Source: a virus
Lineage: Duplodnaviria; Caudoviricetes
Strand: one strand, 5' to 3'
IMG/VR virus record: IMGVR_UViG_2974731583_000001
Coordinates: 1 to 64,000 of that record
Length of the DNA stretch: 64,000 bases
The position numbers were made by a program, and so were the translations under genes. Shown in pieces: positions 1 through 35,596 of this stretch (its first letter is position 1; each line of letters opens with the position of its first letter). The notes under the pieces were generated by a model. The model was not told the DNA's origin and ran no database searches. It saw only the letters and a program-made list of their open reading frames with translations.

Positions 1-1
1 G

Positions 2-75
2 TGGACCAGCTAGGGCTTGAACCTAGGACCTCCAGATTATGAGTCTGTTGCTCTAACCAACTGAGCTACAAGTCC
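2..75 (-). tRNA. tRNA with CAU anticodon, probably tRNA-Ile2 (lysidine type) rather than Met
   Basis: Minus strand GGACTTGTAGCTCAGTTGGTTAGAGC...GACTCATAATC...GGTTCAAGCC...GGTCCA folds as a cloverleaf. The GACTCATAATC anticodon arm resembles bacterial Ile2 tRNAs. Confidence 0.9.
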
Positions 76-2109: not shown

Positions 2110-2585
2110 TTAGTTTTTTTAGGATAGAGAATTGTGTCATGTACAATTGCGGAATCGCATCGCGCAGATACAGGTGGGTAATCTTCTATTTTATTTCCAT
2201 TACTATCTTCTGCTTGATGTGCTACATCTGGTATGTTGTCATAGATTTCAGGATGCGTGAAATATTCTCTTGTGAATGTTTCAAGAGTACAACATCCGTC
2301 TCTGTCTATAACAGTTTTTGCAATGGTACGAACTACATTCTCGTTCAATTCCATGAGTGTGTACTCATAGTTAGCCTTGTCCATTGCGTGAAGTTTATAC
2401 TTCACAATTTCAGGCACAGTATTAAATACTGGGGTAGCAGCGCTATCTACAGCATCCAATACTTCTTGTTTTGTGAGCATTCCCTTTGGGTTAATTACTC
2501 CTGTGCGCATTCCGCCCACAATAACACACGTTGCTAACAATGTAGATGCTACGAGTGTTACAACAAAAGTTGCTAATTTTTCCAT
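2106..2585 (-). CDS. Hypothetical protein with N-terminal membrane anchor
   Basis: Hydrophobic N-terminus (LATFVVTLVASTLLATCVIVGG) and ATTATCAAAATG start context. Confidence 0.85.
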   Translation of the reverse strand: MEKLATFVVTLVASTLLATCVIVGGMRTGVINPKGMLTKQEVLDAVDSAATPVFNTVPEIVKYKLHAMDKANYEYTLMELNENVVRTIAKTVIDRDGCCTLETFTREYFTHPEIYDNIPDVAHQAEDSNGNKIEDYPPVSARCDSAIVHDTILYPKKTK

Positions 2586-2977
2586 TTTGATAATGTTTTT
2601 AATTTAAAAATTTGTTAATTATCCGTTTTAGGTACGGAAACCTTATATAGATAGAGAGTGTGTATCAGCATACACATTAACAGCTCCTCCTTTCCCCGTG
2701 TTAGGTTATCTGTTAGAGTTGTACTTGTCCACACTCTCAATTATTTCTTACAAAAACAACGGCGTGTTTCGCAACAGACCGTTGTTCGACATAACGCTTT
2801 ACGTCTTTTTTGCTTATGGTCAAACATCTAAATCATAACTAAAATACATAAAAGAAGCATTATACCTTCTCATCATTCGTACTTACGTACTTGCGGGCTT
2901 GAAGTTTCCGCTTTAGCTGATTTCTATATAATGTTTATACACCCCGACTAGTTCAGGGCTAGTCGAGGTGTGCTAAG

Positions 2978-3163
2978 TTATGCTCGTTTAAGCAATATGG
3001 ATGTTTCATAACAGGACAATCGTGATTTACCTGTTTTTTGATTAATGGTGCCAGGACATGCAAAATCGTTTTCGAATGCGCATCCTTTGCAGCCATTCGT
3101 TCTTTTATGTGCTCTGTAGAGTATATTGTTTATTCTACAGATTTGTCCGGGTTTCAGTTTCAT
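2978..3163 (-). CDS. Small Cys-rich hypothetical protein
   Basis: 61 aa with GCKGCAF and further Cys residues. Confidence 0.65.
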   Translation of the reverse strand: MKLKPGQICRINNILYRAHKRTNGCKGCAFENDFACPGTINQKTGKSRLSCYETSILLKRA

Positions 3164-3626
3164 CGTATACAGATGCTATGTGTTGGTTTAATTCCAATTT
3201 TATTAGCAATTCTTTAGATGGGAATCTATTAACTTTTGCGTGTGCAAAGTGATTGTCTTTTATACGTACTATTCGCATCACTCTTTCGTATGTAAAGTAA
3301 TGTTTTTCTCTAGTGCGGAAGTTTTGTATACATACCAGGTCATATACACTTTCTGGTAGTTTATCCCACATAGAGTCTACTTTATGTACAATGAATTGTG
3401 CGTTGTTGTTAACTGCTTTGTTAATTGCTTCAACACTAGCACAAACATGACATACTTTACACAGATATACTCGTTTTTTCGATATTATTTCGAGTTCCTG
3501 AGTAACATCTGCAAGATCTCTTGCATACACACAATGTTTTGTAGTTGCTAATACTACATAATACGCTCCAAGAATAATTCCTGTTGGAGTCTTTTTGCGA
3601 ATAACGCATCCTTTCTCTAAAATCAT
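3135..3626 (-). CDS. Hypothetical protein; ends in TAG, and readthrough would add ~10 aa
   Basis: 163-aa ORF in a packed leftward run. Confidence 0.7.
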   Translation of the reverse strand: MILEKGCVIRKKTPTGIILGAYYVVLATTKHCVYARDLADVTQELEIISKKRVYLCKVCHVCASVEAINKAVNNNAQFIVHKVDSMWDKLPESVYDLVCIQNFRTREKHYFTYERVMRIVRIKDNHFAHAKVNRFPSKELLIKLELNQHIASVYDETETRTNL

Positions 3627-4003
3627 TTTATTATGTACTTTGGTTTAACTTTTATTATAGATTGTATTTGTCCATTCCGTAATTTGATTCCAAGAGAAGG
3701 TGACAGATTGTGTTTTTTACACAATTGTAGATAAGCGTATACGCTTTCAGACACAGGAATAATATCTGAGATATCCTGTTTTTTGCTATTGTAAACCGCA
3801 TATGTTCTTGGTTTTCCAGAAGGACTTTTCTGAGATATCAAGGATTCAATGCAATTTGAATAGCATACGATGGTGTCAATTTTTGCAATACGTTTTTGTG
3901 CTGATATTCTTCCTAAGAACATACCAAAAAACATAAATGCAATAATTAATGCAAGCCATATCCAGGCCATTACATTAACTTTCTTTTCTTCTTCTTCGTT
4001 CAT
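3623..4003 (-). CDS. Hypothetical membrane-anchored protein
   Basis: N-terminal TM segment (VMAWIWLALIIAFMFFGMFLG) and ATTATCAAAATG start context. Confidence 0.8.
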   Translation of the reverse strand: MNEEEEKKVNVMAWIWLALIIAFMFFGMFLGRISAQKRIAKIDTIVCYSNCIESLISQKSPSGKPRTYAVYNSKKQDISDIIPVSESVYAYLQLCKKHNLSPSLGIKLRNGQIQSIIKVKPKYIIK

Positions 4004-4058
4004 TTTGATAATGCATTATTTTTCTTCAAGACATTAATCCTGCTTGAAGTTCAGGATA

Positions 4059-4277
4059 TTATTGAGTCACTAAGAAGTGACCGTTGAGTTCCAGCCCCAA
4101 TTTAGACATATTGTCTTTAATCGACGCTATCAATACTTTTGCACTATTTGTAGTTGCATTTTTACAAAACAACATGGTTGAAGTGCCCTCTTTGTACCAA
4201 ATCCGTTTTCGTTGATTTGGATCACCAGACCCAGGATTCTTTTTCCTGGGCTGGTGTACGTGGTTAGCGGTTTGCAT
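4059..4277 (-). CDS. Hypothetical protein
   Basis: 72-aa ORF overlapping the upstream stop. Confidence 0.65.
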   Translation of the reverse strand: MQTANHVHQPRKKNPGSGDPNQRKRIWYKEGTSTMLFCKNATTNSAKVLIASIKDNMSKLGLELNGHFLVTQ

Positions 4278-4680
4278 TGCGGAATTTCTTCATGACGTCC
4301 ATACTTTCCTGTTTCATGTATGACCAGGTAGCAAGAACGAGAGTTATTCTGTCTGCAACATACTCACACGATTCAGCAAACTTTACAATTGCTTCTACAC
4401 TGGTATTTGTAACAGGCATTGTAAATGTTGCTTGTATGGCATACGGCCATTCTTTCTTAGAGTGTATGTTTCTGTTTTCTGCCAGACACACGCTATCCAA
4501 GAATGGACATAACTTTTTGGCATCTGCAAGAGTTCTATCCGTAAAATATGGATAGGCTACAGGCCAATTTACTTTTGTGAGATTGTGAGTTGTAAGTTGT
4601 ACCTTACAATCAACGATTGCCACATTAGTGAGGTTTTTTACTACATGATGTACCATGTTTACACCGGATTGTTCTTCCAT
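4264..4680 (-). CDS. Hypothetical protein
   Basis: 138-aa ORF with ATTATCAAAATG start context. Confidence 0.8.
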   Translation of the reverse strand: MEEQSGVNMVHHVVKNLTNVAIVDCKVQLTTHNLTKVNWPVAYPYFTDRTLADAKKLCPFLDSVCLAENRNIHSKKEWPYAIQATFTMPVTNTSVEAIVKFAESCEYVADRITLVLATWSYMKQESMDVMKKFRNANR

Positions 4681-4850
4681 TTTGATAATGTTTTTTAATT
4701 TAAACCGTAGACCATTTAACTCTGCTACGGTATCAGAGCTTTAGAGATAGGAATCACCACACAAAGAGCCATGTTAAGGTTACAACGGTGATACATACAA
4801 CGACTATTTTAATGGCTGCGTTTTCTATACACGCTGACCATTTTTCTACA

Positions 4851-5108
4851 TCAAAGTCCATTTTCAAGTTCGTTGATTCTGTACTTTGACGTTTTGATGT
4901 CGCTCCAAATCTGGGAATCATCTGGTGAGATACCATATTCTTTTATGATATACTCATAGTTTCCTACTAGAATTGGGTATTCCTCTGACAACTCCTGCAA
5001 TGTTTCTTTACGAATTTCATCACACTTGATTTTGTTGTCCATGAAGCCTATTATTATGGCTTCAACCATTACTGCTACAAATAGCACCGATACACCGATC
5101 TTTTTCAT
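4851..5108 (-). CDS. Small membrane-anchored hypothetical protein
   Basis: N-terminal hydrophobic helix; ATGA overlap with the upstream gene. Confidence 0.7.
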   Translation of the reverse strand: MKKIGVSVLFVAVMVEAIIIGFMDNKIKCDEIRKETLQELSEEYPILVGNYEYIIKEYGISPDDSQIWSDIKTSKYRINELENGL

Positions 5109-5290
5109 TTGTGATAAACGATGGTTAAAATTATGAAACTAATTGTTAGAACCCATGTTAATGCTGCATAAGTATATGCTAATGCTGCACACATATGATT
5201 TCTTTTTGGGTATTTTTCAACCCATTTCGTGAGTACGCATGCGTATATCACGAACATTAAATCAACTACTATGAGAATTACGCTATTCAT
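5105..5290 (-). CDS. Small two-TM membrane protein
   Basis: 61 aa with two hydrophobic segments. Confidence 0.7.
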   Translation of the reverse strand: MNSVILIVVDLMFVIYACVLTKWVEKYPKRNHMCAALAYTYAALTWVLTISFIILTIVYHK

Positions 5291-5501
5291 ATATAATATA
5301 TATTTAGATATTGATTATCGAATATTATCTAACAAAAAACAGACCTATTCTCACGAACCAGTCTGCTAAATCGTAACGTTGGGAATTGCTTGTATGTAAA
5401 ACCAAATAAAAGTACTAATTAAAAACAAGCCTACCCTCACGGGCAAGCCTGTTTAGAGTCATGAGCATTTATTAAATAAATTTATTTTTAGGATTACGCT
5501 T

Positions 5502-5554
5502 AATCCCGACACGTACGTGTTTCGTCTTAATTTTCAAAGACTCATCAGGGGATT
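5502..5554 (-). ncRNA. Hammerhead ribozyme, type I
   Basis: AATCCC-CTGATGA-GTCTT(TGAAAATT)AAGAC-GAAA-CACGTACGTG-TC-GGGATT. The core is complete, all three stems form, and the GUC cleavage triplet is at 5510-5508. Confidence 0.92.
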
Positions 5555-5626
5555 TTTAAAAATGCTTGTCTAATTCCAAGCTGCCAATCACTCTTTATAG
5601 CTGTGATTATTCTATTTTCGTCTATA

Positions 5627-5908
5627 CTATTCATCATCTTTTACTTTATGAAATCCATCAAAAGCATCGATTTTGAAAAGTATTTCAAAGTTCGGGCTAA
5701 GTCTCTTTCCATCAATAGCAGAATAAACTTCTTTTTGTTGCTCTATAACAACTGTAAGAAGTTCTTCTTTTGCATATTTTTTGTAAAGTTTCTTAGCTTC
5801 AGAAATCGCTTGAGATTTAGACAAATAAATGCCATAATTCTCATACATGAAAGGTGGATAATCCCACCTTTCAAGTGCGTATCTTACGATAAATATTGGT
5901 ACTTTCAT
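5627..5908 (-). CDS. Hypothetical protein
   Basis: 93-aa ORF co-oriented with its neighbours. Confidence 0.7.
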   Translation of the reverse strand: MKVPIFIVRYALERWDYPPFMYENYGIYLSKSQAISEAKKLYKKYAKEELLTVVIEQQKEVYSAIDGKRLSPNFEILFKIDAFDGFHKVKDDE

Positions 5909-5914
5909 AACTAT

Positions 5915-6112
5915 TTATTTAGGTAGCCAACATTGTCCGTAAATACTCCAGACGTAATTATCTTCCATATTTGAAGATAAATCTAATGATTCGCCGAACA
6001 AATCATCATCATTGTCACGAGTTCTAGCCTTGCTAAATTCCTCGTACTGTTCTTTTGTCATTCCCATTGCTGTATTTATTTTAGGAATTGATGTGGATTT
6101 TACAGATTCCAC
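5915..6112 (-). CDS. Small acidic hypothetical protein
   Basis: 65-aa ORF; start codon uncertain. Confidence 0.55.
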   Translation of the reverse strand: MESVKSTSIPKINTAMGMTKEQYEEFSKARTRDNDDDLFGESLDLSSNMEDNYVWSIYGQCWLPK

Positions 6113-6471
6113 TTACTGCGTTTTTATACTAGTTTCTTCTCTAGGTTTTGTGTTTTACACCTAAAACTCACATTGGACTATAAAATAAGAAATTGCCGAT
6201 AACTAGTGGCATGATATTACTTGTGAGTTATCTCGAGTTAGCGTGTGTTACTGTCTCGAGTTCTCTACAAAACCCTTAATAAGGGGAATTTCTTATAATA
6301 TACATAAAGTAAGAAAAACTACGGCGTCCTCAACATCTTGGAAATACTGAAACTAAGGAAGGTTTGATTACTTTTAAGTGTTATACATAACACTCATCCT
6401 GCTGTTGTTACAAACAGCGACCTGATTAATGCTCTTAGCCAATATCTTTTATATTGAGTTTTTTTAAATTT

Positions 6472-6843
6472 GCTCGTCTTTCCAAGCTGCCAACACTTAG
6501 ACACTCCTAGTGATTAACCAAGTTTAGTTTTAACTCCTATGTCATAGAGCCTCTCTTTGTTTAATAGCCTGTGAGAGTCAGACCTCTGTCTTTCCAGAGT
6601 GTCAATTTTACGATACCAATGTCAAATACTTTGATAAGACTATTAGTTTCAGCATAAGCTTACTTATCTCCTAAACCACGTAACGGTTGTCTTTATCTTA
6701 GGAGTTACCTGTCTATTCCAGGTTGTCAACACGTTTGACTTATTTTAAATCACGTTGTGTGTTGTGATTGGCTCTAAGATTCGGCTACACTCTCACTTAT
6801 TTATACACGAGAGAGTCGTGTACCTGTCTTTTCAGGCTGCCAA
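6472..6843 (-). repeat. Array of four TTGRCA + 5-bp stem + (G/A)AA(n)AGA-loop hairpins; a fifth copy lies at 5564-5587
   Basis: Copies at 6472-6493, 6584-6605, 6707-6729 and 6822-6843 have covarying stems. Confidence 0.85.
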
Positions 6844-6852
6844 TCTTCTGTA

Positions 6853-6901
6853 TCACAGACACAGGTGTTATCCTGTGTTTCGTCCAGTCTCATCAGTGTG
6901 A
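6853..6901 (-). ncRNA. Hammerhead ribozyme, type I, minimal stem II
   Basis: TCACA-CTGATGA-GACTGGAC-GAAA-CACAGG(ATAACA)CCTGTG-TC-TGTGA, with GUC at 6860-6858. Confidence 0.85.
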
Positions 6902-7542
6902 ATTTTAACGTCTCCTGGATGACGTCCCTTAAAAAGAGAAACCCTGTAGTCTAGATGCAAGTGATGAGCTCACCTACAGGGCTTTTTCTGCATTCAACTG
7001 TTATCAACAGTCTCATTTTTAGTTATGTTTGGATCATAACTCCTATATTTCCAAAACACCATGGGCCTGACGGTGAATATAGGTTCGTTACAGATGCAGA
7101 TCTATAACTACCACTGCCTCCTTTACTCTGTGGTCTGCGGTTAGACTTTTTATTCACTTATAATTGCTTTACGTAATTGATAAGTAAATTTATTACACAT
7201 GTTGTTTGATTACAACATTGTGCCGGTTCTATCCTTTCCTTTAGAAGTCTAACTTAACTAGATACTTTTGAACCGTATATTTGTAGTCAATAGCTATCCG
7301 CCGCATTTTATATGTGGTGTTGGAACCGCCATTAGCTACAAAAATTTCTATTTAACATAACGACGCTATTTTACTATGTTGCTATAGTCTGCCCCAGCCA
7401 GTCGCGCGTCGGCGTTAGCCGACCGCGTCTTGGCGATAGTTTGAAGATAGTTTGAAGATAGGCTGAAGCGTTTATCTCGCATATATCCTGCCCCTGCATG
7501 TGGAACCTCGGAAGCGTTTATCTCGCATTCTTAAAAAACAAA

Positions 7543-7576
7543 AAATACTCAGGCGCGTTAGCGCTTGAGTATTTTG
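7543..7576 (-). terminator. Intrinsic terminator after the 7581-8426 gene (A/T tracts on both sides)
   Basis: AAAATACTCAGGCGC-GTTA-GCGCTTGAGTATTTT hairpin directly after the stop codon. Confidence 0.75.
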
Positions 7577-7580
7577 TTGT

Positions 7581-8426
7581 TTAGAACGGAGCGTTTTCTC
7601 CTTCAGCCACTGGTGCTGGAGCAACTGGTGCTGCTGTAGGTGCTGCTGTAGGTGCACTTACGGTAGCAACTGGTGCTGGAGCATTGGCAGGTTTCGCCCA
7701 ATAGGTCTCCTCGATACGTCGACCTTGCTTCTCTACATCGAAGCCGTCGATGTACTGAGGCACAGGCAAGCCTGTTTCTTCGTCAGCGATGAAGCGAGCG
7801 AGGATGGTGAATACGCGGCAGCAATCGCGGATAACTGTCTGTTGTCCACGGTGCTTGGTGTTGAACTTGCGAATCTCGTCAGGGTTTGCAGGGTTGGTTG
7901 CGTAGCAATCCCCCTTCTTGAACTTGTAAGTCCGAATCGCAGCGTGTTCTGGGCATAGAATCGGTGCGACTGTCGAAGCGTACTGTGGGTCTGCTTGCAG
8001 ACTAGCAAGGTCTACCTTGCACTCTTCGGTGGAGAAGTCAAGTTTGCCTTGTGGGTCCTTGGCACCATACTTCATAATGATGTCAAGGACACCCGCCATA
8101 GACGTGTTGTCTTCGAACCACGTTGCCTGCGCCGTTTCGCCTGGTACGGCGACATTACGTTCTACAACGTTCACTCTAATCTTTTTGGCACCGTTGTTGG
8201 AATTCACATCGTCTACCTGAGATAGGGTGATTGCTTGTGGAACGAACTTGTCGTACTCGCGCATCTTGTTGCGGACCATTGCGTCGTAAGTCGCAGGGTC
8301 TACGTAAGACTGGTTGGCACTTGGCTGATTCATCATCTGCTGATTCATCATCTGCTGAAGCATTGCTTGCATCATCATTGGATTCATCATACCGTTGTTC
8401 ATCATGTTCATTGCATCGTTTGTCAT
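7581..8426 (-). CDS. Hypothetical protein with SSB-like C-terminal tail; first gene of the leftward arm
   Basis: 281 aa with distinct GC-rich codon usage, an M/N/Q-rich N-terminus and a P/A-rich linker ending ...AEGENAPF. Confidence 0.85.
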   Translation of the reverse strand: MTNDAMNMMNNGMMNPMMMQAMLQQMMNQQMMNQPSANQSYVDPATYDAMVRNKMREYDKFVPQAITLSQVDDVNSNNGAKKIRVNVVERNVAVPGETAQATWFEDNTSMAGVLDIIMKYGAKDPQGKLDFSTEECKVDLASLQADPQYASTVAPILCPEHAAIRTYKFKKGDCYATNPANPDEIRKFNTKHRGQQTVIRDCCRVFTILARFIADEETGLPVPQYIDGFDVEKQGRRIEETYWAKPANAPAPVATVSAPTAAPTAAPVAPAPVAEGENAPF

Positions 8427-8598
8427 AGTTGTGTGATATTAAATTGTGAATAATGTGGATTGTCAATATCAACTCGATGAGATTTATAGTCTCACCGTGA
8501 CGGTAAACAAGCGCTATATATTAAATACACAGCATGTGCTTGCTTACACCTAAACTCGAGGTTAATCGGGTAAAGGTCCTTCTTTGCTTGTTAATTAA

Positions 8599-8820
8599 GC
8601 CGAAGGCGTCGGTCCGCAGGACCGGGTGTGTATGAAAGCGTTAAAAGTCAAAGCGCAGCCCAAAGAAGGAGCCGGTAGGCGACTGAGATGTGTATGAAGC
8701 GATGAGAAATAAGGCGCAGCCAGGGAGGGCGTAGCCGAGGCGCCGGTAGGCGCCGAAGAGAAGGAAGTAACAAACATTACATAAGCAAATTAAGTTTTGC
8801 GTAGCATGGAGGGCGTAGCC
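8599..8820 (+). promoter_or_regulatory. Cluster of GNA/GGTA-loop DNA mini-hairpins (candidate early promoters or origin)
   Basis: At least 8 GC-stem mini-hairpins in ~220 nt of a GC-rich island within an AT-rich genome. Confidence 0.5.
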
Positions 8821-9175
8821 CAAAGTTTATACTTCGAACAACACAAAAGACTAATACACATGGGACAGACATAGAGACAGAAATGTCTAAGGTAGTAGGC
8901 AACAATACACAACAGATAGACTCACATCATAACAACACATGACACATAGATTAGACATAACAAAAACAAATACACAACATCTCGACTACTGTCTTTCAGA
9001 GGCACAAGACTTCAGACTTAACGGTTACTTGTTAGGCGTAGCCAAAAAAGATATTCACAATATAACACCACGGGGGGTGTTTTTCGAGGCTATCTACGGT
9101 GGGGTCATAGTATCAGGAGTTTCACGTTTCCACACACTTTTCACACATTTAAAAAAAATAAAAAAAAAATAAAAA

Positions 9176-9206
9176 AAGCTGAACAATCTTTCGATCATCC
9201 AGCTTT
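9176..9206 (-). terminator. Intrinsic terminator after the 9220-9639 gene
   Basis: Minus strand AAGCTGGATGATC-GAAA-GATTGTTCAGCT followed by a long T run. Confidence 0.7.
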
Positions 9207-9219
9207 CTTCAAAAATCTA

Positions 9220-9639
9220 TTATTTTATTTCTTCATATGGAACATATTCGTCCATTATGGTTTCCTTAGGGGGCTCTTGTGATTCAATAGAATCTTTGAG
9301 CTTTTCTACTTCTTTATTTATCTCATCTAAAGTCTGTTTGTCTTTCTCTGACACGTCTGTATTTGCTTTATCTATAGCATCTGTTAGAACTGTCATACGT
9401 TTGATGAGATCTTCTTTAGATATGTTGTTGTACAAGTAGTATAGGTAACTCTGAGCATTGTTTAAGTATACTTTGTATACTTCATTATGCGGGTTATCTG
9501 CTACATCTTTAGTTAATTTATCTACCAATGCTTCAACCTCATCAATGGTCTTTTTTGGTAGATTACCTTTATCGTCGACCTTATTGATTAAGTTGCCGTC
9601 GATATCGTATATATTTGCGTGTTTATTTATCTGTGCCAT
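9220..9639 (-). CDS. Hypothetical protein
   Basis: 139-aa ORF with TAA stop. Confidence 0.8.
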   Translation of the reverse strand: MAQINKHANIYDIDGNLINKVDDKGNLPKKTIDEVEALVDKLTKDVADNPHNEVYKVYLNNAQSYLYYLYNNISKEDLIKRMTVLTDAIDKANTDVSEKDKQTLDEINKEVEKLKDSIESQEPPKETIMDEYVPYEEIK

Positions 9640-9692
9640 TATATTCGTTATCTTTTCTTAATTTAGCATATGTATCCCAGCTTTTTTCACAT

Positions 9693-10196
9693 TTAGCTGT
9701 TAGATCTAATGCCTTTATATAATCCGGATCTTTTAAGAAACTTTTCAGCGTGGTAGACGTACCTTGTACATTCTCTTTGGTATTCGTCTCCTCTTTCATC
9801 TAATATAGTGTGTGTATATGTTTGATTATTAAGCCAATTTTCGTAGTGTTTAAAGGCCTGTTTCCTCTCTCTTTTGGGGCTATATTGGTGTATACACTAT
9901 AACATTTTATAGGCATCTACAGAACCACAGGCTCGTAACATGGATATATCGTCTATAAAGCTTTGTGCTCCAGCTTCCCCATCAGATTTTTTTAATAACT
10001 CATATTCTTGTACAGATTGTATAAAGTATGGGTTATTTTGATCATATACTGGTTCACACCCTACAATGTATGCTGCGTTTTTTGGGGCCCCGTGTATAAA
10101 GAAATACTTGCAATTGTCAGTTACGGGGGTATCTGTACACTTTAGGCTTAAGAAATCAGCGTAATATAGTATATAATTCAGTTCAATATTATTCAT
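9693..10196 (-). CDS. Hypothetical protein (167 aa, one internal TAG)
   Basis: The frame stays open 67 codons past the TAG at 9899-9897 to a TAA at 9695-9693. Confidence 0.75.
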
Positions 10197-10597
10197 TTCT
10201 TACACATGGTATTAAAGATACACTTAGTTACATACCCACAAAGGTAGGCGAAAGGCTCTTGTAGAGTATATTTCACCGGGATATCTGATTCAATATACTG
10301 ATATGTGTCACAACACACATGTATTGCTTCATGTGCAGCAACATCTACCAATAAAGACAAACTTGTAGACTTATCTTTTGTTATATTACACTTTACTAGT
10401 ATACAATATTTCTTAGTCTTTTTATTAAAACAAGCGGTTGTTGTAGCATCTCCCTTAAGTATACTGTCATCTAGTTCTGTTTTATCAGAGTATTGTAATA
10501 ACTTTTGTAAGTCTACTAATTTTATAGAGTTACTAGCTACTATAAAATTTATAGGGTATATTGTATTATATGTATCTATACTTCCTTTACTCTTCAT
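10193..10597 (-). CDS. HExxH zincin-like metalloprotein
   Basis: AAHEAIH motif with a downstream QEPFAYL third-ligand segment. Confidence 0.7.
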   Translation of the reverse strand: MKSKGSIDTYNTIYPINFIVASNSIKLVDLQKLLQYSDKTELDDSILKGDATTTACFNKKTKKYCILVKCNITKDKSTSLSLLVDVAAHEAIHVCCDTYQYIESDIPVKYTLQEPFAYLCGYVTKCIFNTMCKK

Positions 10598-10664
10598 ATG
10601 CTGTATAATATTATTATATCTATATATATCTATATTTCTTTGTTACTTTCTTTATACAACATAC

Positions 10665-10744
10665 TAACGTTGTATAAGCTTTATTTGGTTGCATTTGGAA
10701 AAATTATATAATTGCTGCAACCAATTGAGTATATACTTGCGTTA
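10665..10744. promoter_or_regulatory. Back-to-back divergent promoter candidates, TGCAACCAA-N15-CGTTA
   Basis: A minus copy at 10693-10665 and a plus copy at 10716-10744 sit exactly at the strand switch. Confidence 0.7.
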
Positions 10745-10770
10745 TATGTGTGATTTTAAACGAAATTACA

Positions 10771-11157
10771 ATGAATGCAAAAGTATTAAACGTTATTGAA
10801 CCGATGTTCTCGTTGTTACCTGGCGATACTTTAGAGTTAACTGACGATGGAACATCTTATGTGGCAGAAATATCAGATTCTGATTTTAATGAGCGTGAAG
10901 TTGTGTCAGCAACATTAAAGATTTCGGCAAACTACGCGCAAGAGTTGGTTAAAGCTGGTTATTTGCAAGTACCAACCGATGAAAATAAGGGATTCATCAA
11001 CGTATTTGACGAAATTGATTCGCTACTTACTAAGTACAACGAAGATTTGTCTAACGTTGGTTCTGAGGATATGCCAGAGTGCATGCGAGTTGAGAAAACA
11101 ACCGTACTCAAGAATATGATTAAACTTTTGGAACATCTTAAATCAGTAAAGAAATAA
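10771..11157 (+). CDS. Hypothetical protein
   Basis: ATG at 10771 lies inside the 10750-11157 ORF, just downstream of the promoter motif. Confidence 0.8.
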   Translation: MNAKVLNVIEPMFSLLPGDTLELTDDGTSYVAEISDSDFNEREVVSATLKISANYAQELVKAGYLQVPTDENKGFINVFDEIDSLLTKYNEDLSNVGSEDMPECMRVEKTTVLKNMIKLLEHLKSVKK

Positions 11158-11570
11158 TGGACGAAGAGAAAATTATAGACCAGTCTCAGTTGGCGGAGTC
11201 TATTTCTGAGAAGATAAAGATGGAATTTTCAGATTTGTTTCTGGTAAAACCCCTGGCTCCAATTAAAGTCGTAAAAGAATTTAGTAAGTTGCCAAACACA
11301 GCACCAACTAAAGATAAGGAAGGTGTAGAAGCAATAGATGTAGACAAGGTAGAGACAGAAACAAAGGAAGTCGATTCAGATTATAGAAAGGGCATTATAA
11401 TTAAGATACCCTTCTGTTATAAAGCAAACAAAGAAGAGTGGAAAGGAGTTACTCAAGATCTAAAACCAGGCGATACAGTACTGTTTAGAGAGACATCCGG
11501 TTTACGATTCGACTTACTTAAAGATAGCAGACTTCTTAGAGTATACGATATTTTAGCAGTTTGTAAGTGA
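11157..11570 (+). CDS. GroES/cpn10-like co-chaperonin
   Basis: DLFLVKP...KGIIIKIP...LKPGDTVLF...LLRVYDILAV follows the cpn10 strand pattern, with a long mobile-loop insertion. Confidence 0.6.
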   Translation: MDEEKIIDQSQLAESISEKIKMEFSDLFLVKPLAPIKVVKEFSKLPNTAPTKDKEGVEAIDVDKVETETKEVDSDYRKGIIIKIPFCYKANKEEWKGVTQDLKPGDTVLFRETSGLRFDLLKDSRLLRVYDILAVCK

Positions 11571-11785
11571 TAGACATTTACGAAATAGCAAAAGAAGTAG
11601 CTAAACAGTTAAACATAGATTACGATATAGCATTACAAGTGTGCCAACATCCATTTATGTTTACTGTACAGAAGATGAAAGATAATTCAGATTCTAAAAG
11701 CATATTATTCAACGAACTATTTAAATTTAAAATAAAATCTAGATTTAAAAATGACAAATCAAGAGACTACAGCCCGTTCAAATAA
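11567..11785 (+). CDS. Short HU/IHF-like DNA-binding protein
   Basis: Pattern EIAKEVAKQLNI...SILFNELFKFKIK. Confidence 0.55.
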   Translation: MIDIYEIAKEVAKQLNIDYDIALQVCQHPFMFTVQKMKDNSDSKSILFNELFKFKIKSRFKNDKSRDYSPFK

Positions 11786-12605: not shown

Positions 12606-12678
12606 TCCCCCGTGGCGTAACGATAGCGCGAAGAGCTCTAACCTCTTGTCAGTCTCGGTTTGAATCCGGGCGGGGGCA
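12606..12678 (+). tRNA. Amber suppressor tRNA (anticodon CUA), probably charged with Gln
   Basis: Acceptor TCCCCCG/CGGGGGC+A with an unpaired 1:72. Anticodon arm AAGAG-CTCTAAC-CTCTT places CTA at 12638-12640. T arm CTCGG-TTTGAAT-CCGGG. Confidence 0.92.
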
Positions 12679-12713
12679 CTATTTTCATAATACATTCATA
12701 ATATAAATTAAAC

Positions 12714-34429: not shown

Positions 34430-35596
34430 ATGGCAAAGAAAAAAGAACAGAATCCAACTGGGTTTGATGAGTTGTATAGTGTATATGGTAACCCCGATGA
34501 AACAGAAGAGGTTACTGATATCGACGAACAACTCGAACAGAACATGCCCACGATTGAGGACAAAGTGAACGAAGAAGCGCCAGCTACCAACGAAGGTACT
34601 GAGGACAGCAAAAAAAATGATGATGACACCACCGTAGGTTCTACAGACGATAGTGACATCCCAGAGGACGTATTAAATAGAATGAACAATACGTCAACCA
34701 ACACAGAAGACACTACCGATACAGAGGAACACGAAGATGTTTCAGAAGAAGAGATAACTGAAGCTAATCAGGTTAGTACTCTGTTTGACGCAATCGGCGA
34801 GTCTATGGGTTGGAATATGGCGGAAATTGACGACAACGAAAAGCCAGTTACTGTAGACGAACTTACTTATTATCTACAAGAAGTAGTAAAACAAAACTCA
34901 ATTCCTGACTATGGCGACGATCGAGTTCGTCAGCTTGATGAATACGTTAAGAATGGTGGTAAGTTCGAAGACTTTTATCAAAAATAGCAACAGGCTATTT
35001 CTATCGACAACCTCGACATGGATGACGAAGCTAATCAAAAGGCAGTAGTTCGCGAGCTTCTACAGCGTAGCGGCTATACTGAAGATCAGATTAACAATAA
35101 AATTAATCGTTATCTTGATGCTGATATGCTTGTAGAGGAGTCTGAAGACGCATTAGAACGCCTTAAACACATTCGTGAAAACGAAATAGAGCAGCAACGT
35201 TTACAACAAGAACAGATTGCTAAACAGCAAGAAGAGAACTCTCGTAAGTTCTTTGATGACGTTACGTCAACAATAAACCAGCTTACTAATATTCGTGGTA
35301 TTCCGATTCCAAAGGAGGATCGTAAATCTCTATTGGACTATATATTCAAAGTAGACCAGAATGGAGAAACACAATATCAGAAAGACTTTAATGAAAATCT
35401 TGCTAAAAATCTAATTGAGTCGGCTTACTTTACAATGAAGGCTGATCAATTTGTTTCTAATGCAAAAAAGACTGGTGAAACATCCGCTGCAGAAAAACTT
35501 AGAAAAATGTTAAGACATACGACTAAAAATCACAGTTCGTATAATGTCAATGAAAAACAAAAGTCAGTTATAGACCTTGCGTCAGGACTATTTTGA
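34430..35596 (+). CDS. Acidic scaffolding-like capsid assembly protein (388 aa, 1 TAG)
   Basis: Very acidic N-terminus plus coiled coil, directly upstream of the MCP. The TAG at 34985 sits inside a QK*QQ run. Confidence 0.7.

What the first reader, a model, noticed from the sequence alone, without database searches (positions are those of the whole stretch)
5564..6843. Five covarying TTGRCA-hairpin repeats, four of them spaced ~115 nt apart in an ORF-free region
Seen (minus strand): TTGGCA-GCCTG-AAAAGA-CAGGT, TTGACA-ACCTG-GAATAGA-CAGGT, TTGACA-CTCTG-GAAAGA-CAGAG, TTGGCA-GCTTG-GAAAGA-CGAGC and TTGGCA-GCTTG-GAATTAGA-CAAGC. The stems change in a compensatory way while the 6-nt leader and purine loop are kept. 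Copies start at 6472, 6584, 6707 and 6822 (spacings 112, 123 and 115) with unique, structured spacers. Inference: a protein-recognised RNA element. It could be a nut/boxB-like antitermination site, or processing sites that release a set of small RNAs from a repeat-spacer precursor, bounded by hammerheads. This is a candidate undescribed non-coding RNA system.
Basis: partly seen in the sequence, partly recalled or inferred. Interest (0 to 1): 0.82.

Follow-up and report, generated by a model that had tools for sequence, protein, structure and literature searches.

The report
Widespread RNA boundary hairpin, five copies
The five repeats are real copies of a 22-base RNA hairpin that is missing from Rfam and from the papers I could search, yet occurs in very diverse phages just ahead of tRNAs and other folded RNAs, and also behind the 16S rRNA gene of some ultra-small bacteria. 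Here it divides a heavily transcribed, gene-poor stretch of a gut crAss-like phage into separate RNA modules, and what reads it is still unknown.

Summary
Observation confirmed. The window holds five minus-strand copies of UUGRCA + 5-bp covarying stem + GAA(N0-2)AGA loop + A (6843-6822, 6729-6707, 6605-6584, 6493-6472, 5587-5564). They are the only copies in this 98.7-kb crAss-like genome (model scores 33-39 bits; next best 13.7).

They are bracketed by a RAGATH-1 hammerhead (6925-6853, 73 bits) and a second type-I hammerhead that scores below Rfam's threshold (5553-5503).

The motif is not specific to Crassvirales. One strict pattern found more than 119 viral loci, and 120 of 124 matches had perfect stems. 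G.U pairs outnumber A.C mismatches 22 to 2, so the sense strand folds, most simply as RNA. The motif lies 3-6 nt before tRNAs, before odd tRNA-like genes, sRNAs, a hammerhead and some ORFs, and never inside long ORFs.

In at least 14 CPR/Saccharibacteria-type genomes the single copy lies 90-135 nt after the 16S rRNA end; in the three loci examined it abuts the strand that pairs with the 16S leader.

Best reading (about 0.42): an RNA boundary or maturation mark in precursors of folded RNAs. A nut site, a promoter, a CRISPR-like array and an HDV-like ribozyme each fail a defining feature or are contradicted.

No Rfam family matches. This scan had already met the same hairpin in another phage (e1-5319112, e1-5319099).

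The parts
6931..6982 (-). Terminator-like hairpin (9-bp stem GCCCUGUAG/CUACAGGGU, large loop) plus a U-tract, directly upstream of hammerhead 1. It leaves no room for a promoter before the ribozyme.
   Evidence: Read from the sequence. The segment 7112-6931 is 99% identical in cr273_1. RNA contigs cover 6872-7112.
6853..6925 (-). RAGATH-1 hammerhead ribozyme (type I). The predicted cut is after GUC, between 6858 and 6857, which is 14 nt before hairpin copy 1.
   Evidence: RF03152 at 73.2 bits against a gathering score of 56.3. The core CUGAUGAG...CGAAAC...GUC is visible in the sequence.
6822..6843 (-). Hairpin copy 1: UUGGCA GCCUG AAAAGA CAGGU
   Evidence: model score 32.9 bits.
6730..6821 (-). 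Unit 1, a folded non-coding interval. Its fold has z = -3.15. UGUGAU at the ribozyme-cut 5' end can pair with AUCACA further along.
   Evidence: no ORF.
6707..6729 (-). Hairpin copy 2: UUGACA ACCUG GAAUAGA CAGGU
   Evidence: 39 bits. Identical in cr273_1.
6606..6706 (-). Unit 2, a folded non-coding interval. An 8-bp helix CUCCUAAG/UUUAGGAG starts 2 nt after the hairpin.
   Evidence: z = -2.1.
6584..6605 (-). Hairpin copy 3: UUGACA CUCUG GAAAGA CAGAG
   Evidence: 39 bits.
6494..6583 (-). Unit 3, a non-coding interval. Its 3' part (6549-6494) is conserved together with copy 4 in other crAss-like contigs (L020, L100).
6472..6493 (-). Hairpin copy 4: UUGGCA GCUUG GAAAGA CGAGC
   Evidence: 38.5 bits. 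RNA contigs of four studies run across it.
6268..6471 (-). Unit 4, the RNA stretch with the deepest cover in four RNA libraries. It has an A-rich linker, a closing helix CUCAAUA/UGUUGAG around a variable insert (about 6436-6355), the conserved tail GGACGCCGUAGUUUUUCUUA, and a terminator-like hairpin at 6285-6273.
5915..6112 (-). Small ORF (65 aa from GTG; an internal ATG gives about 50 aa), with no known family. It is part of the cassette between copies 4 and 5, which cr273_1 has replaced.
5627..5908 (-). Small ORF (93 aa), with no known family. It belongs to the same cassette.
5564..5587 (-). Hairpin copy 5: UUGGCA GCUUG GAAUUAGA CAAGC, 10 nt before hammerhead 2.
   Evidence: 36.9 bits. cr273_1 has GCUCG/CGAGC here, a change on both sides.
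5503..5553 (-). Hammerhead 2 (type I): AUCCC CUGAUGAG [GUCUU-UGAAAAUU-AAGAC] CGAAAC [stem III] GUC, with the cut between 5508 and 5507.
   Evidence: RF00163 at 20.9 bits and RF03152 at 25.7 bits, both below the gathering score. Contigs sharing 5519-5566 and then diverging are summed to depth 1777 in run X2.
5337..5483 (-). sRNA-like tail after hammerhead 2, with two CGUGAG-loop terminator hairpins.
   Evidence: Weak match to BTnc231 (27.5 bits against a gathering score of 80.4; E 0.0066). Conserved in cr273_1.

Best explanation
The five repeats are members of a widespread, uncatalogued cis-acting RNA hairpin: (U)UGRCA, a 5-bp stem closed by G-C, a GAA(N0-2)AGA loop, then A. The hairpin is written into precursors of folded RNAs immediately 5' of the strand that starts the next folded module.

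In this phage, read-through transcription from the upstream operon yields a long non-coding precursor.
1. Hammerhead 1 cuts 14 nt before copy 1.
2. Copies 1-4 head four differently folded units of 90-200 nt. The fourth unit ends at a small terminator and has the deepest RNA cover.
3. Copy 5 and hammerhead 2 close a swappable two-ORF cassette.

I infer that the hairpin is a boundary or maturation mark. It would be read by a component common to all bacteria. The mark would let neighbouring modules fold independently and be separated by an endonucleolytic cut a few nucleotides 3' of the hairpin.

Shown: the motif, its covariation, its strand, its transcription, its positions and its distribution. 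As a by-product, the conserved 22-mer serves as a joint at which modules are exchanged between related phages.
For: **Structure on the sense strand**
- 99% of stem cells pair, with 44 double-sided changes; 0 of 500 shuffles reach this.
- The unconstrained first stem pair is paired in 103 of 103 non-redundant viral instances.
- G.U/U.G outnumbers A.C/C.A 22 to 2.

**Transcription**
- RNA-library contigs from four studies cover the array and run across copy 4.
- Summed contig depth at 6296-6538 is 10-100 times that of the flanking ORFs. Depth is one figure per contig, so this is a weak measure.

**Position**
- Of 104 non-redundant viral instances, none lies inside a long ORF.
- 20 of 22 ARAGORN-called tRNAs downstream of the hairpin begin 3-6 nt after it.
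- U stands at -1 in 17 of 22 and A directly after the stem in 16 of 22, which is an ordinary RNase P leader.
- The same 4-6 nt gap precedes about 19 tRNA-Leu-like genes that ARAGORN misses.
- In Acinetobacter phage Alexa and at window copy 5, the hairpin lies 7-10 nt before stem I of a type-I hammerhead.

**Cellular context**
- In at least 14 CPR genomes the only copy lies 90-135 nt after the 16S 3' end.
- In the three loci folded or read (L231, L129, L173) it lies about 0-7 nt before the trailer strand that pairs with the 16S leader.
- It therefore sits inside a stable-RNA precursor, next to the classical processing helix.

- No protein family is shared by more than 6 of 73 locus groups.
- Genomes carry only 1-7 copies each.
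- Hosts span several phyla.

**Modules are swapped at the hairpins**
- The window and cr273_1 differ by the whole cassette between copies 4 and 5.
- RNA contigs of relatives join or diverge inside the hairpins (tables 5c and 7).
Against: - No RNA end was mapped. Only assembled contigs were available, and these break at variable sites anyway.
- No binding partner is known. Neither the leader nor the loop has a conserved complementary partner nearby.
- A 5-bp hairpin starting at -4 to -7 would sit in the part of the leader that the RNase P protein normally contacts (from memory), so it could hinder cleavage as easily as help it.
- About 15% of instances precede ORFs, where RNase P has no obvious substrate.
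- In the CPR operons the hairpin is on the 3' side of the mature RNA, whereas in phages it is on the 5' side of the tRNA. 'Boundary mark' is the common denominator, not a demonstrated common mechanism.
- The invariant loop could reflect an intrinsic fold (tandem sheared G.A pairs) and not a reader.
Confidence: 0.42

Rival explanations
1. A nut-like or put-like element. The nascent hairpin, alone or with a small phage protein, modifies host RNA polymerase so that it reads through terminators or resists Rho in long untranslated RNA.
For: - The architecture recalls lambda boxB as I recall it: a 5-bp stem and a purine-rich GAAAGA loop preceded by a short single-stranded box.
- It lies ahead of untranslated genes such as tRNAs and sRNAs.
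- RNA polymerase and the Nus factors are universal, which would explain conservation across phyla.
- Small N-like proteins would escape my protein clustering.
- Two earlier reports of this scan also named boxB as the closest known.
Against: - There is no boxA. NusB-NusE read boxA nucleotides 1-8 (PMC3177189), and positions 5' of UUGRCA carry no information.
- The loop is invariant across phyla, whereas boxB sequences differ between lambdoid phages to match each phage's own N protein (from memory).
- Four copies at about 115-nt intervals, and a fixed 3-6 nt gap to tRNAs, are not needed for antitermination.
- In the five CPR loci that show the layout, the single copy sits a few tens of nt before the 16S operon's own terminator.
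Confidence: 0.14
2. A self-sufficient structural cap with no specific reader. It would be a compact hairpin (stem extended by tandem sheared G.A/A.G pairs) that insulates neighbouring folds. After RNase P, RNase III or hammerhead cleavage it would leave the upstream fragment with a 3' tail too short for exonucleases to load.
For: - The conserved GA...GA flanks a variable loop centre (AA, AUA, AUUA) in the window copies, which fits tandem G.A pairs.
- The 3-6 nt gap to the RNase P site would leave a very short tail.
- A universal fold needs no co-evolving partner, which matches the absence of a shared protein.
- The last, degenerate copy of the L008 array is followed directly by a terminator.
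Against: - The single-stranded UGRCA and the A after the stem are as conserved as the loop, which a bare cap does not explain.
- Five base pairs are weak for blocking PNPase, RNase II or RNase R (general knowledge).
- Copy 1 lies only 14 nt from a ribozyme-made 5' end, so it would cap nothing.
Confidence: 0.15
3. Primarily a recombination joint. The conserved 22-mer would flank mobile cassettes (tRNA, sRNA or accessory ORF) and mediate their shuffling, as PeSL elements do in T4-type phages.
For: - The cassette between copies 4 and 5 is replaced in cr273_1.
- RNA contigs of relatives skip from one hairpin to another (6464 to 6727, with a hybrid hairpin between) or diverge within hairpins.
- The same hairpin-plus-tRNA-Leu-like module occurs in many unrelated phages.
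Against: - Homology-driven shuffling needs identity, not pairing. The stems covary and tolerate G.U on one strand only.
- The single, fixed copy in CPR 16S operons is not a cassette boundary.
- PeSLs are a stem-loop followed by TTGACA-N17-TATAAT (PMC4122927). No -10 element follows here.
Confidence: 0.1
4. A promoter. Either TTGACA acts as a -35 box, or a DNA hairpin is recognised by a phage RNA polymerase as in phage N4. Transcription would then start 3-6 nt after the stem.
For: - TTGACA equals the sigma-70 -35 consensus.
- The fixed 3-6 nt distance to tRNA +1 and the 20-40 nt distance to ATGs resemble promoter-to-start geometry.
Against: - No -10 element lies 16-18 nt downstream. With normal spacing the start would fall inside the tRNA.
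- The wobble bias places the hairpin on the sense strand, not the template strand.
- Only 1-7 copies occur per genome.
- The phages are far too diverse to share one polymerase.
- In CPR operons the motif lies inside the pre-16S transcript, before the strand that must pair with the leader.
- RNA contigs run through copy 4.
- The mapped phi14:2 middle promoters are of a different type, and phi14:2 lacks the motif.
Confidence: 0.05
5. A decoy: a mimic of a CRISPR repeat (RNA anti-CRISPR) or of another host RNA, that titrates a host nuclease or defence protein.
For: It is a repeated hairpin with unique intervals in a phage accessory region. The loop octamer GGAAAGAC equals, as I recall, the 23S rRNA segment 2056-2063; I did not test this.
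Against: - The stems differ between copies and the intervals are 90-101 nt.
- The same sequence is kept in phages of hosts from different phyla, whereas CRISPR repeats are lineage-specific.
- A decoy does not explain the adjacency to tRNAs or the single copy in CPR rRNA operons.
Confidence: 0.03

Closest known systems
Lambda-type nut site (boxA + boxB) and the RNA-only put elements of HK022
   Same: A short cis-acting RNA element made of a single-stranded box followed by a 5-bp hairpin with a purine-rich loop. It is carried by phages and presumably read on the nascent transcript.
   Different: There is no boxA (the GCUCUU part that NusB-NusE read is absent). The loop has 6-8 nt and is invariant across phyla. 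It occurs in several copies per locus at a fixed 3-6 nt from tRNAs. It also occurs just before the terminator of CPR 16S operons. No N-like protein has been identified.
Pre-tRNA 5' leaders and the leader-trailer processing helices of rRNA operons (RNase P and RNase III sites)
   Same: It sits in precursors of stable RNAs, directly 5' of the helix at which RNase P (tRNA) or, by analogy with E. coli, RNase III (the 16S leader-trailer stem) cuts. The linker ends in U at -1, as in ordinary RNase P substrates.
   Different: To my knowledge, known leaders and trailers carry no element with conserved sequence shared between phyla. Here 14-15 nucleotides are nearly invariant. No cleavage has been shown.
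RAGATH-1 hammerhead (RF03152) with its extra 5' hairpin
   Same: In the window and in phage Alexa, the hairpin lies 7-10 nt before stem I of a type-I hammerhead. That is where RAGATH-1 carries its own accessory hairpin. Copy 5 aligns to that part of the model.
   Different: The RAGATH-1 hairpin loop is complementary to the stem-II loop (UCCAG/CUGGA here). The UUGRCA hairpin shows at most an AAUU/AAUU match at copy 5. None of 158 further instances has a hammerhead core within 60 nt.
PeSL promoter/stem-loop cassettes of T4-type phages (PMC4122927)
   Same: A short conserved intergenic element containing TTGACA and a stem-loop. It lies at the start of accessory genes and at indel breakpoints between close relatives.
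   Different: A PeSL is a stem-loop followed by a complete sigma-70 promoter. Here the stem-loop follows TTGACA, no -10 box exists, and the stem is kept by RNA-type covariation.
The same hairpin reported earlier by this scan in a 322-kb freshwater phage (e1-5319112, e1-5319099)
   Same: Identical motif: TTGACA GCTTG GAAAGA CAAGC in a tandem array (my locus L008).
   Different: There the units are 78-nt identical duplicates. Here the four units are unique and 112-124 nt long, they lie in a crAss-like phage, and the array is bracketed by hammerheads. The CPR 16S context does not appear in the summaries of those reports that I was shown.

Membership tests
UUGRCA-GAAAGA boundary hairpin (uncatalogued; defined here by model R1) | Single-stranded (U)UGRCA directly 5' of the stem | tested here: met
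   All five copies have TTGGCA or TTGACA. In 103 viral instances this part was fixed by the search pattern. Variants found by the model show that only the first U is free.
UUGRCA-GAAAGA boundary hairpin (uncatalogued; defined here by model R1) | 5-bp stem closed by G-C and kept by covariation | tested here: met
   All five copies pair at 5 of 5 positions. Family-wide, 99% of cells pair and 4 of 5 pairs show changes on both sides.
UUGRCA-GAAAGA boundary hairpin (uncatalogued; defined here by model R1) | Loop RAA(N0-2)AGA, followed by A after the stem | tested here: met
   Loops are AAAAGA, GAAUAGA, GAAAGA, GAAAGA and GAAUUAGA. The base after the stem is A in four of five copies and G in copy 3. 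It is A in 88 of 103 instances family-wide.
UUGRCA-GAAAGA boundary hairpin (uncatalogued; defined here by model R1) | Intergenic, in the sense orientation, directly ahead of a folded RNA or gene start | tested here: met
   All five copies are on the coding strand of this arm and outside ORFs. Each is followed within 1-15 nt by the 5' strand of a predicted helix.
Lambda-type nut site | boxA (GCUCUU-type, 8 nt read by NusB-NusE) | tested here: not met
   No position 5' of UUGRCA carries more than 0.35 bit of information. The boxA definition comes from PMC3177189.
Lambda-type nut site | boxB: 5-bp stem with a GNRA-like purine pentaloop bound by an N-type arginine-rich peptide | tested here: inconclusive
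   The stem length and purine loop are similar, but the loop has 6-8 nt. No N-like protein was sought beyond neighbour clustering.
Lambda-type nut site | One site per operon, between promoter and terminators | tested here: not met
   Four copies lie within 372 nt. The CPR copy lies just before the operon's terminator.
RAGATH-1 hammerhead (RF03152) | Score at or above Rfam's gathering threshold, with an intact CUGAUGA/GAAA/GUC core | tested here: met
   6853-6925 scores 73.2 bits against 56.3. The second ribozyme at 5503-5576 scores 25.7 bits, below threshold, and is therefore a generic type-I hammerhead candidate.
CRISPR array or solitary CRISPR-repeat mimic | Near-identical repeats of 23-47 nt separated by spacers of about 26-72 nt | tested here: not met
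   The stems differ between copies and the intervals are 90-101 nt. Likeness to host CRISPR repeats was not tested.
Sigma-70 promoter / PeSL | -35 TTGACA, a 16-18 nt spacer, and a -10 TATAAT-like hexamer | tested here: not met
   No promoter-like site is called at any copy. Positions 24-29 are not conserved.
N4-type DNA-hairpin promoter | The hairpin forms on the template strand | tested here: not met
   There are 22 G.U against 2 A.C on the sense strand. These would be A.C mismatches on the template strand.
HDV-like (theta) ribozyme next to tRNAs | Nested double pseudoknot with the catalytic C at the first position of J4/2, cutting at the 3' end of a tRNA | tested here: not met
   The base after the hairpin is A and not C. 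The element lies 5' of tRNAs. There is no Rfam ribozyme hit other than hammerheads. The motif definition comes from PMC10879173.
Any Rfam 15 family | A match to a curated covariance model at the hairpins | tested here: not met
   No hit overlaps a hairpin at the gathering threshold. At E up to 5, the only overlap is the sub-threshold RAGATH-1 match (5503-5576), whose 5' part aligns over copy 5.

The most novel reading that the evidence does not exclude
The hairpin is a universal 'cut here' or 'fold here' signal of bacterial RNA metabolism that has gone unnoticed. It would be a portable leader element recruiting a conserved maturation enzyme (RNase P, or another universal factor) to any folded RNA placed behind it. 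Phages of many phyla would use it to carve tRNAs, ribozyme-flanked sRNAs and accessory messages out of polycistronic transcripts, and some CPR bacteria would use it for their own 16S rRNA.
Probability: 0.25. Interest if true: 0.88.

Novelty: categorically new. Interest (0 to 1): 0.72.

Why it matters
A 22-base RNA element with about 15 near-invariant bases is shared by phages of unrelated hosts and by the rRNA operons of ultra-small bacteria, yet it is absent from Rfam and from the papers I could search. That pattern points to an unrecognised, very conserved reader in bacterial RNA maturation or transcription. It would give a handle on three things:
- how phages express tRNA islands and non-coding RNA arrays, including the long, abundant non-coding RNAs already reported but unexplained in the crAss-like phage phi14:2;
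- why hammerheads cluster with other small RNAs in phage genomes;
- how CPR bacteria process 16S rRNA.

It is also a compact candidate part for building multi-RNA expression cassettes. The claim is directly testable in two cultured systems that carry one or two copies: Bacteroides phage BS-TP2 and Acinetobacter phage Alexa.

Tried and rejected
**Literature**
- Searches for RAGATH, crAss non-coding regions, crAss promoters, conserved hairpins upstream of phage tRNAs, the motif letters, PeSL, theta ribozymes and boxA found no description of this hairpin.
- The main text of the RAGATH paper (PMC5737381) does not discuss the motifs.

**phi14:2 middle promoter**
- Its promoters are A-tract + TTGAC + TAnnTTTG, which is a different element. 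phi14:2 has no copy of the hairpin.

**A pairing partner**
- I looked for a partner of the UUGRCA leader and of the loop within 150-160 nt on either side. Neither showed meaningful enrichment.

**A shared neighbouring protein**
- Clustering 2032 ORFs from 119 loci gave no family present in more than 6 of 73 groups.
- The nine ORFs flanking the window array match no PHROG family.

**Hammerhead adjacency as a general rule**
- None of 158 other instances has a hammerhead core within 60 nt.

**Hairpin as the start of tRNA arrays**
- 9 of 21 hairpin-led tRNAs have another tRNA within 150 nt upstream, against 141 of 261 for other tRNAs. There is no clear difference.

**RNA ends from public runs**
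- Only assembled contigs were served, so ends, strands and levels cannot be read. Contig breaks at 6472, 6549, 6707, 6724-6727 and 6831-6833 reflect divergence between strains.
- The 'goes back' joints (6320 to 5616, 6549 to 5518) are read as rearranged relatives, not as circular RNA.

**Distribution in Patescibacteria**
- The phylum-wide sample gave 2 hits in 151 genomes. One of them (G147) lies inside an ORF and is chance. Many of these assemblies may lack rRNA genes, so this is no measure of prevalence.

**Untested leads from memory**
- GGAAAGAC equals 23S rRNA 2056-2063 and resembles RNase P CR-I (GGAAAGUC).
- UURRCA resembles the 3' half of boxA. NusB-NusE do not read that half.
Full report
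**1. The observation**

On the minus strand the window carries five hairpins:
- TTGGCA-GCCTG-AAAAGA-CAGGT (6843-6822)
- TTGACA-ACCTG-GAATAGA-CAGGT (6729-6707)
- TTGACA-CTCTG-GAAAGA-CAGAG (6605-6584)
- TTGGCA-GCTTG-GAAAGA-CGAGC (6493-6472)
- TTGGCA-GCTTG-GAATTAGA-CAAGC (5587-5564)

All stems pair. Positions 1-3 change on both sides between copies.

A covariance model built from these five and 37 other copies scores them 32.9-39 bits. The next best site in the window scores 13.7 bits (E 0.67). A pattern search and a model search of the whole 98,667-bp genome find no sixth copy.

The interval 6113-6930 has no credible ORF under table 11 or with TAG read as Gln. The genome carries a CUA suppressor tRNA at 12606. 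The fifth copy is separated from the other four by two small ORFs with no known family.

**2. The ribozymes**

Rfam places a RAGATH-1 hammerhead at 6925-6853, at 73.2 bits against a gathering score of 56.3. Its GUC cleavage site lies between 6858 and 6857, which is 14 nt before copy 1. It is preceded directly by a terminator-like hairpin and U-tract (6982-6931), so it must be made by read-through from upstream.

Ten nucleotides after copy 5 lies a second type-I hammerhead (5553-5503). It scores below Rfam's threshold (20.9 and 25.7 bits). Its sequence nevertheless shows CUGAUGAG, a 5-bp stem II, CGAAAC, a 4-bp stem III and GUC.

After it comes an sRNA-like tail with two CGUGAG-loop terminators, which matches BTnc231 weakly (E 0.0066).

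**3. The host genome and a close relative**

The nearest named record is crAss-like phage cr273_1 (Suoliviridae, Buhlduvirus). Compared with the window, cr273_1 shows the following:
- It keeps copies 2-5.
- Copy 4 changes a U.G pair to C-G, and copy 5 changes U-A to C-G, a change on both sides.
- It has lost hammerhead 1, copy 1 and the start of unit 1.
- It carries CUGAAUGAG in hammerhead 2.
- It has a different, shorter cassette between copies 4 and 5.

The hairpins are therefore better conserved than the ribozymes, and the modules between hairpins are exchangeable.

**4. The motif is a large family, not a crAss peculiarity**

Of 124 matches, 120 have perfect stems, where I estimate about 16% by chance.

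In 103 non-redundant instances:
- The first stem pair, which the pattern leaves free, is paired in all 103 (G-C 69, A-U 13, C-G 9, U-A 6, G.U 6).
- Wobble pairs outnumber A.C/C.A mismatches 22 to 2. The sense strand is therefore the folded one.
- The base after the stem is A in 88.

On 41 distinct sequences, 99% of cells pair. The covariation score is 0.69 against 0.30 when shuffled, with 0 of 500 shuffles as high, and it collapses when the partners are slid.

Copies found by the model show that the first leader base is free (CTGACA, GTGACA, ATGACA).

The 119 loci fall into 73 groups with no shared protein family. Whole genomes hold 1-7 copies:
- Bacteroides phage BS-TP2 has one.
- Acinetobacter phage Alexa has two.
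- cr273_1 has four.
- The 322-kb phage behind L008 has seven.
- phi14:2 has none.

The same pattern in 596 Gb of bacterial genomes gives only 95 hits, near my rough chance estimate of about 70. Of these, 45 have perfect stems.

**5. Where it sits**

Of 104 non-redundant viral instances, none lies inside a long ORF. Nineteen have an ARAGORN tRNA just downstream, about fifteen have an ORF start within 60 nt, and the rest precede tRNA-like genes with long inserts or other non-coding sequence.

For 22 hairpin-tRNA pairs the gap is 3-6 nt in 20. The base at -1 is U in 17, and the first base after the stem is A in 16. This is an ordinary RNase P leader. About 19 tRNA-Leu-like genes that ARAGORN misses show the same 4-6 nt gap.

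In phage Alexa the first copy is followed after 7 nt by a type-I hammerhead, the same arrangement as window copy 5. None of 158 other instances has a hammerhead core nearby.

**6. A cellular context**

Several bacterial hits looked alike, and Rfam showed why: they lie just behind 16S rRNA genes of CPR (Saccharibacteria-type) genomes.
- Whole-genome model searches find exactly one copy in each of five such genomes.
- All five hits among 41 genomes of one family lie 89-107 nt after the 16S 3' end.
- In total, at least 14 genomes show the motif 90-135 nt after the 16S end.

In the complete locus L231 the layout runs as follows:
1. a TTGACA-N17-TATACT promoter;
2. a leader containing CGUUUUAUUUUGUUCCGUUUAUAUUC;
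3. the 16S gene;
4. about 100 nt of trailer;
5. the hairpin;
6. six or seven nt;
7. GAAUAUUAAACGGAACAAAAUAUAGCG, the complement of the leader segment;
8. a terminator.

In L173 the leader-trailer helix begins at the last bases of the hairpin.

The motif is thus part of a stable-RNA precursor and abuts the classical processing helix. This argues against a promoter and, because the terminator follows at once, against an antiterminator.

**7. Transcription**

Four RNA libraries from four studies hold parts of the stretch. Only assembled contigs were available, so ends, strand and true levels cannot be read.

Contigs cover 6872-7112 and the units, and they run across copy 4 (6440-6549). Summed depth at 6296-6538 is 10-100 times that of the neighbouring ORFs in all four runs, for example X7 at 2380-11761 against 20-90. 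It falls between 6295 and 6134, where a small terminator-like hairpin lies (6285-6273).

Many contigs come from relatives that share a module and then diverge or jump at a hairpin (tables 5c and 7). This agrees with the cassette swap seen in cr273_1.

Unit 4 has a conserved frame in other crAss-like contigs: an A-rich linker, the helix CUCAAUA/(A/G)UUGAG around a variable insert, and GGNCNCCNGUUUYUUA.

A published parallel exists. In phi14:2, long intergenic regions are transcribed above most genes and their function is unknown (bioRxiv 10.1101/2020.03.07.982082).

**8. Interpretation**

The shared denominator of all contexts is a sense-strand hairpin, most simply RNA, placed a few nucleotides 5' of the strand that opens the next folded module. 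That module may be a tRNA acceptor stem, hammerhead stem I, the closing helix of an sRNA, or the 16S trailer strand. In two of these cases a known endonuclease cuts there (RNase P; RNase III by analogy with E. coli).

I therefore read it as a boundary or maturation mark in precursors. In this phage, the hairpins together with two hammerheads would divide one read-through transcript into separate RNAs. The spread over phyla and the lack of any shared phage protein point to a universal host component or to an intrinsic fold. Confidence is about 0.42.

Alternatives:
- **nut/put-like (0.14).** There is no boxA, since NusB-NusE read nucleotides 1-8 only (PMC3177189). The loop is invariant. In CPR operons it sits before a terminator.
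- **A reader-less cap or insulator (0.15).**
- **A recombination joint as the main function (0.10).** This would explain the swaps but not the RNA-type covariation.
- **A promoter (0.05).** There is no -10 box, the strand is wrong for an N4-type hairpin, the motif lies inside pre-16S, and RNA contigs run across it.
- **A decoy (0.03).**

It is not an HDV-like theta ribozyme: A and not C follows the hairpin, and it lies 5' of tRNAs.

**9. Novelty**

No Rfam 15 family matches the hairpins, and eight literature searches found nothing. This scan had already met the same hairpin in the 322-kb phage behind my locus L008 (e1-5319112, e1-5319099). The family is therefore not new to the scan.

New here are:
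- the crAss-like array of unique units;
- the hammerhead brackets;
- the evidence of transcription;
- the RNase P-type leader statistics;
- the fixed place in CPR 16S operons.

Noticed in passing
window 6853-6925 (-): In the RAGATH-1 hammerhead, the loop of the extra 5' hairpin (AUCCAGGA) is complementary to the stem-II loop (ACUGGAC): UCCAG pairs with CUGGA. The Rfam consensus has CCAAG and CUUGG at the same places, and this copy lacks one base in each loop. This looks like a conserved loop-loop pseudoknot.
   Followed up: partly
window 6852-6857 and about 6765-6770 (-): The 5' end left by hammerhead 1 (UGUGAU) can re-pair with a downstream AUCACA in unit 1. That AUCACA repeats the 5' strand of hammerhead stem I. 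This could be a post-cleavage switch that prevents re-ligation (fold).
   Followed up: no
window about 6150-6170 (-); also L020, L065, L069, L007: A conserved box AGUUUUAGGUGUAAAAYGC lies about 35-90 nt before the first small ORF after the non-coding array in several crAss-like contigs. It is a candidate promoter or leader element of unknown type.
   Followed up: no
L231 (G003:C1:134300-137200), L129, L173 and 11 further CPR loci: The 16S rRNA operons of CPR/Saccharibacteria-type genomes carry the phage hairpin once. It lies 90-135 nt after the 16S end and, in the three loci examined, abuts the trailer strand of the leader-trailer helix. Several of these 16S genes also have large insertions, for example L152.
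   Followed up: yes
L224 2527-2635, L021, L029, L055, L079, L114 and others: About a fifth of the hairpins precede tRNA-Leu-like genes. These have an AGUCAGGUGGCGGAAUGGUAGACGC start and a GGUUCGAAUCCUGUCCUGACUA end with 30-60 nt of extra sequence in the middle. ARAGORN mostly misses or mislabels them.
   Followed up: no
L223 1296-1380 (Acinetobacter phage Alexa, MT375042 about 34921-35005): An unannotated type-I hammerhead (CUGACGAG...CGAAAC...GUC) follows the hairpin, just downstream of the integrase gene of a temperate Acinetobacter phage. After it come an ncRNA of about 130 nt and a second, imperfect hairpin.
   Followed up: partly
window 5337-5483 (-): An sRNA-like stretch with two hairpins that have CGUGAG loops and U-tracts matches the Bacteroides sRNA BTnc231 weakly (27.5 bits; E 0.0066). 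Similar YGUGAR-loop hairpins occur upstream in cr273_1.
   Followed up: no
window 5519-5566 (-): In RNA run X2, many different contigs share the 5' part of hammerhead 2 (stem I, the core, and the conserved stem II GUCUU-UGAAAAUU-AAGAC) and then diverge at stem III. Their summed depth is 1777. This suggests a large, expressed family of this hammerhead subtype in that sample.
   Followed up: no
window 1-75, 193-562, 12606-12679: The window carries tRNA-Met, a permuted tmRNA-like gene and a CUA suppressor tRNA. None of them has the hairpin in front.
   Followed up: partly
L018, L049, L080, L109: In one group of phage tRNA arrays, the spacer before the hairpin has its own conserved frame: CCAAUAAUCGURAGGA, a variable insert, then AAUCCGAU, followed directly by UUGACA. 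A second module therefore travels with the hairpin in that lineage.
   Followed up: no
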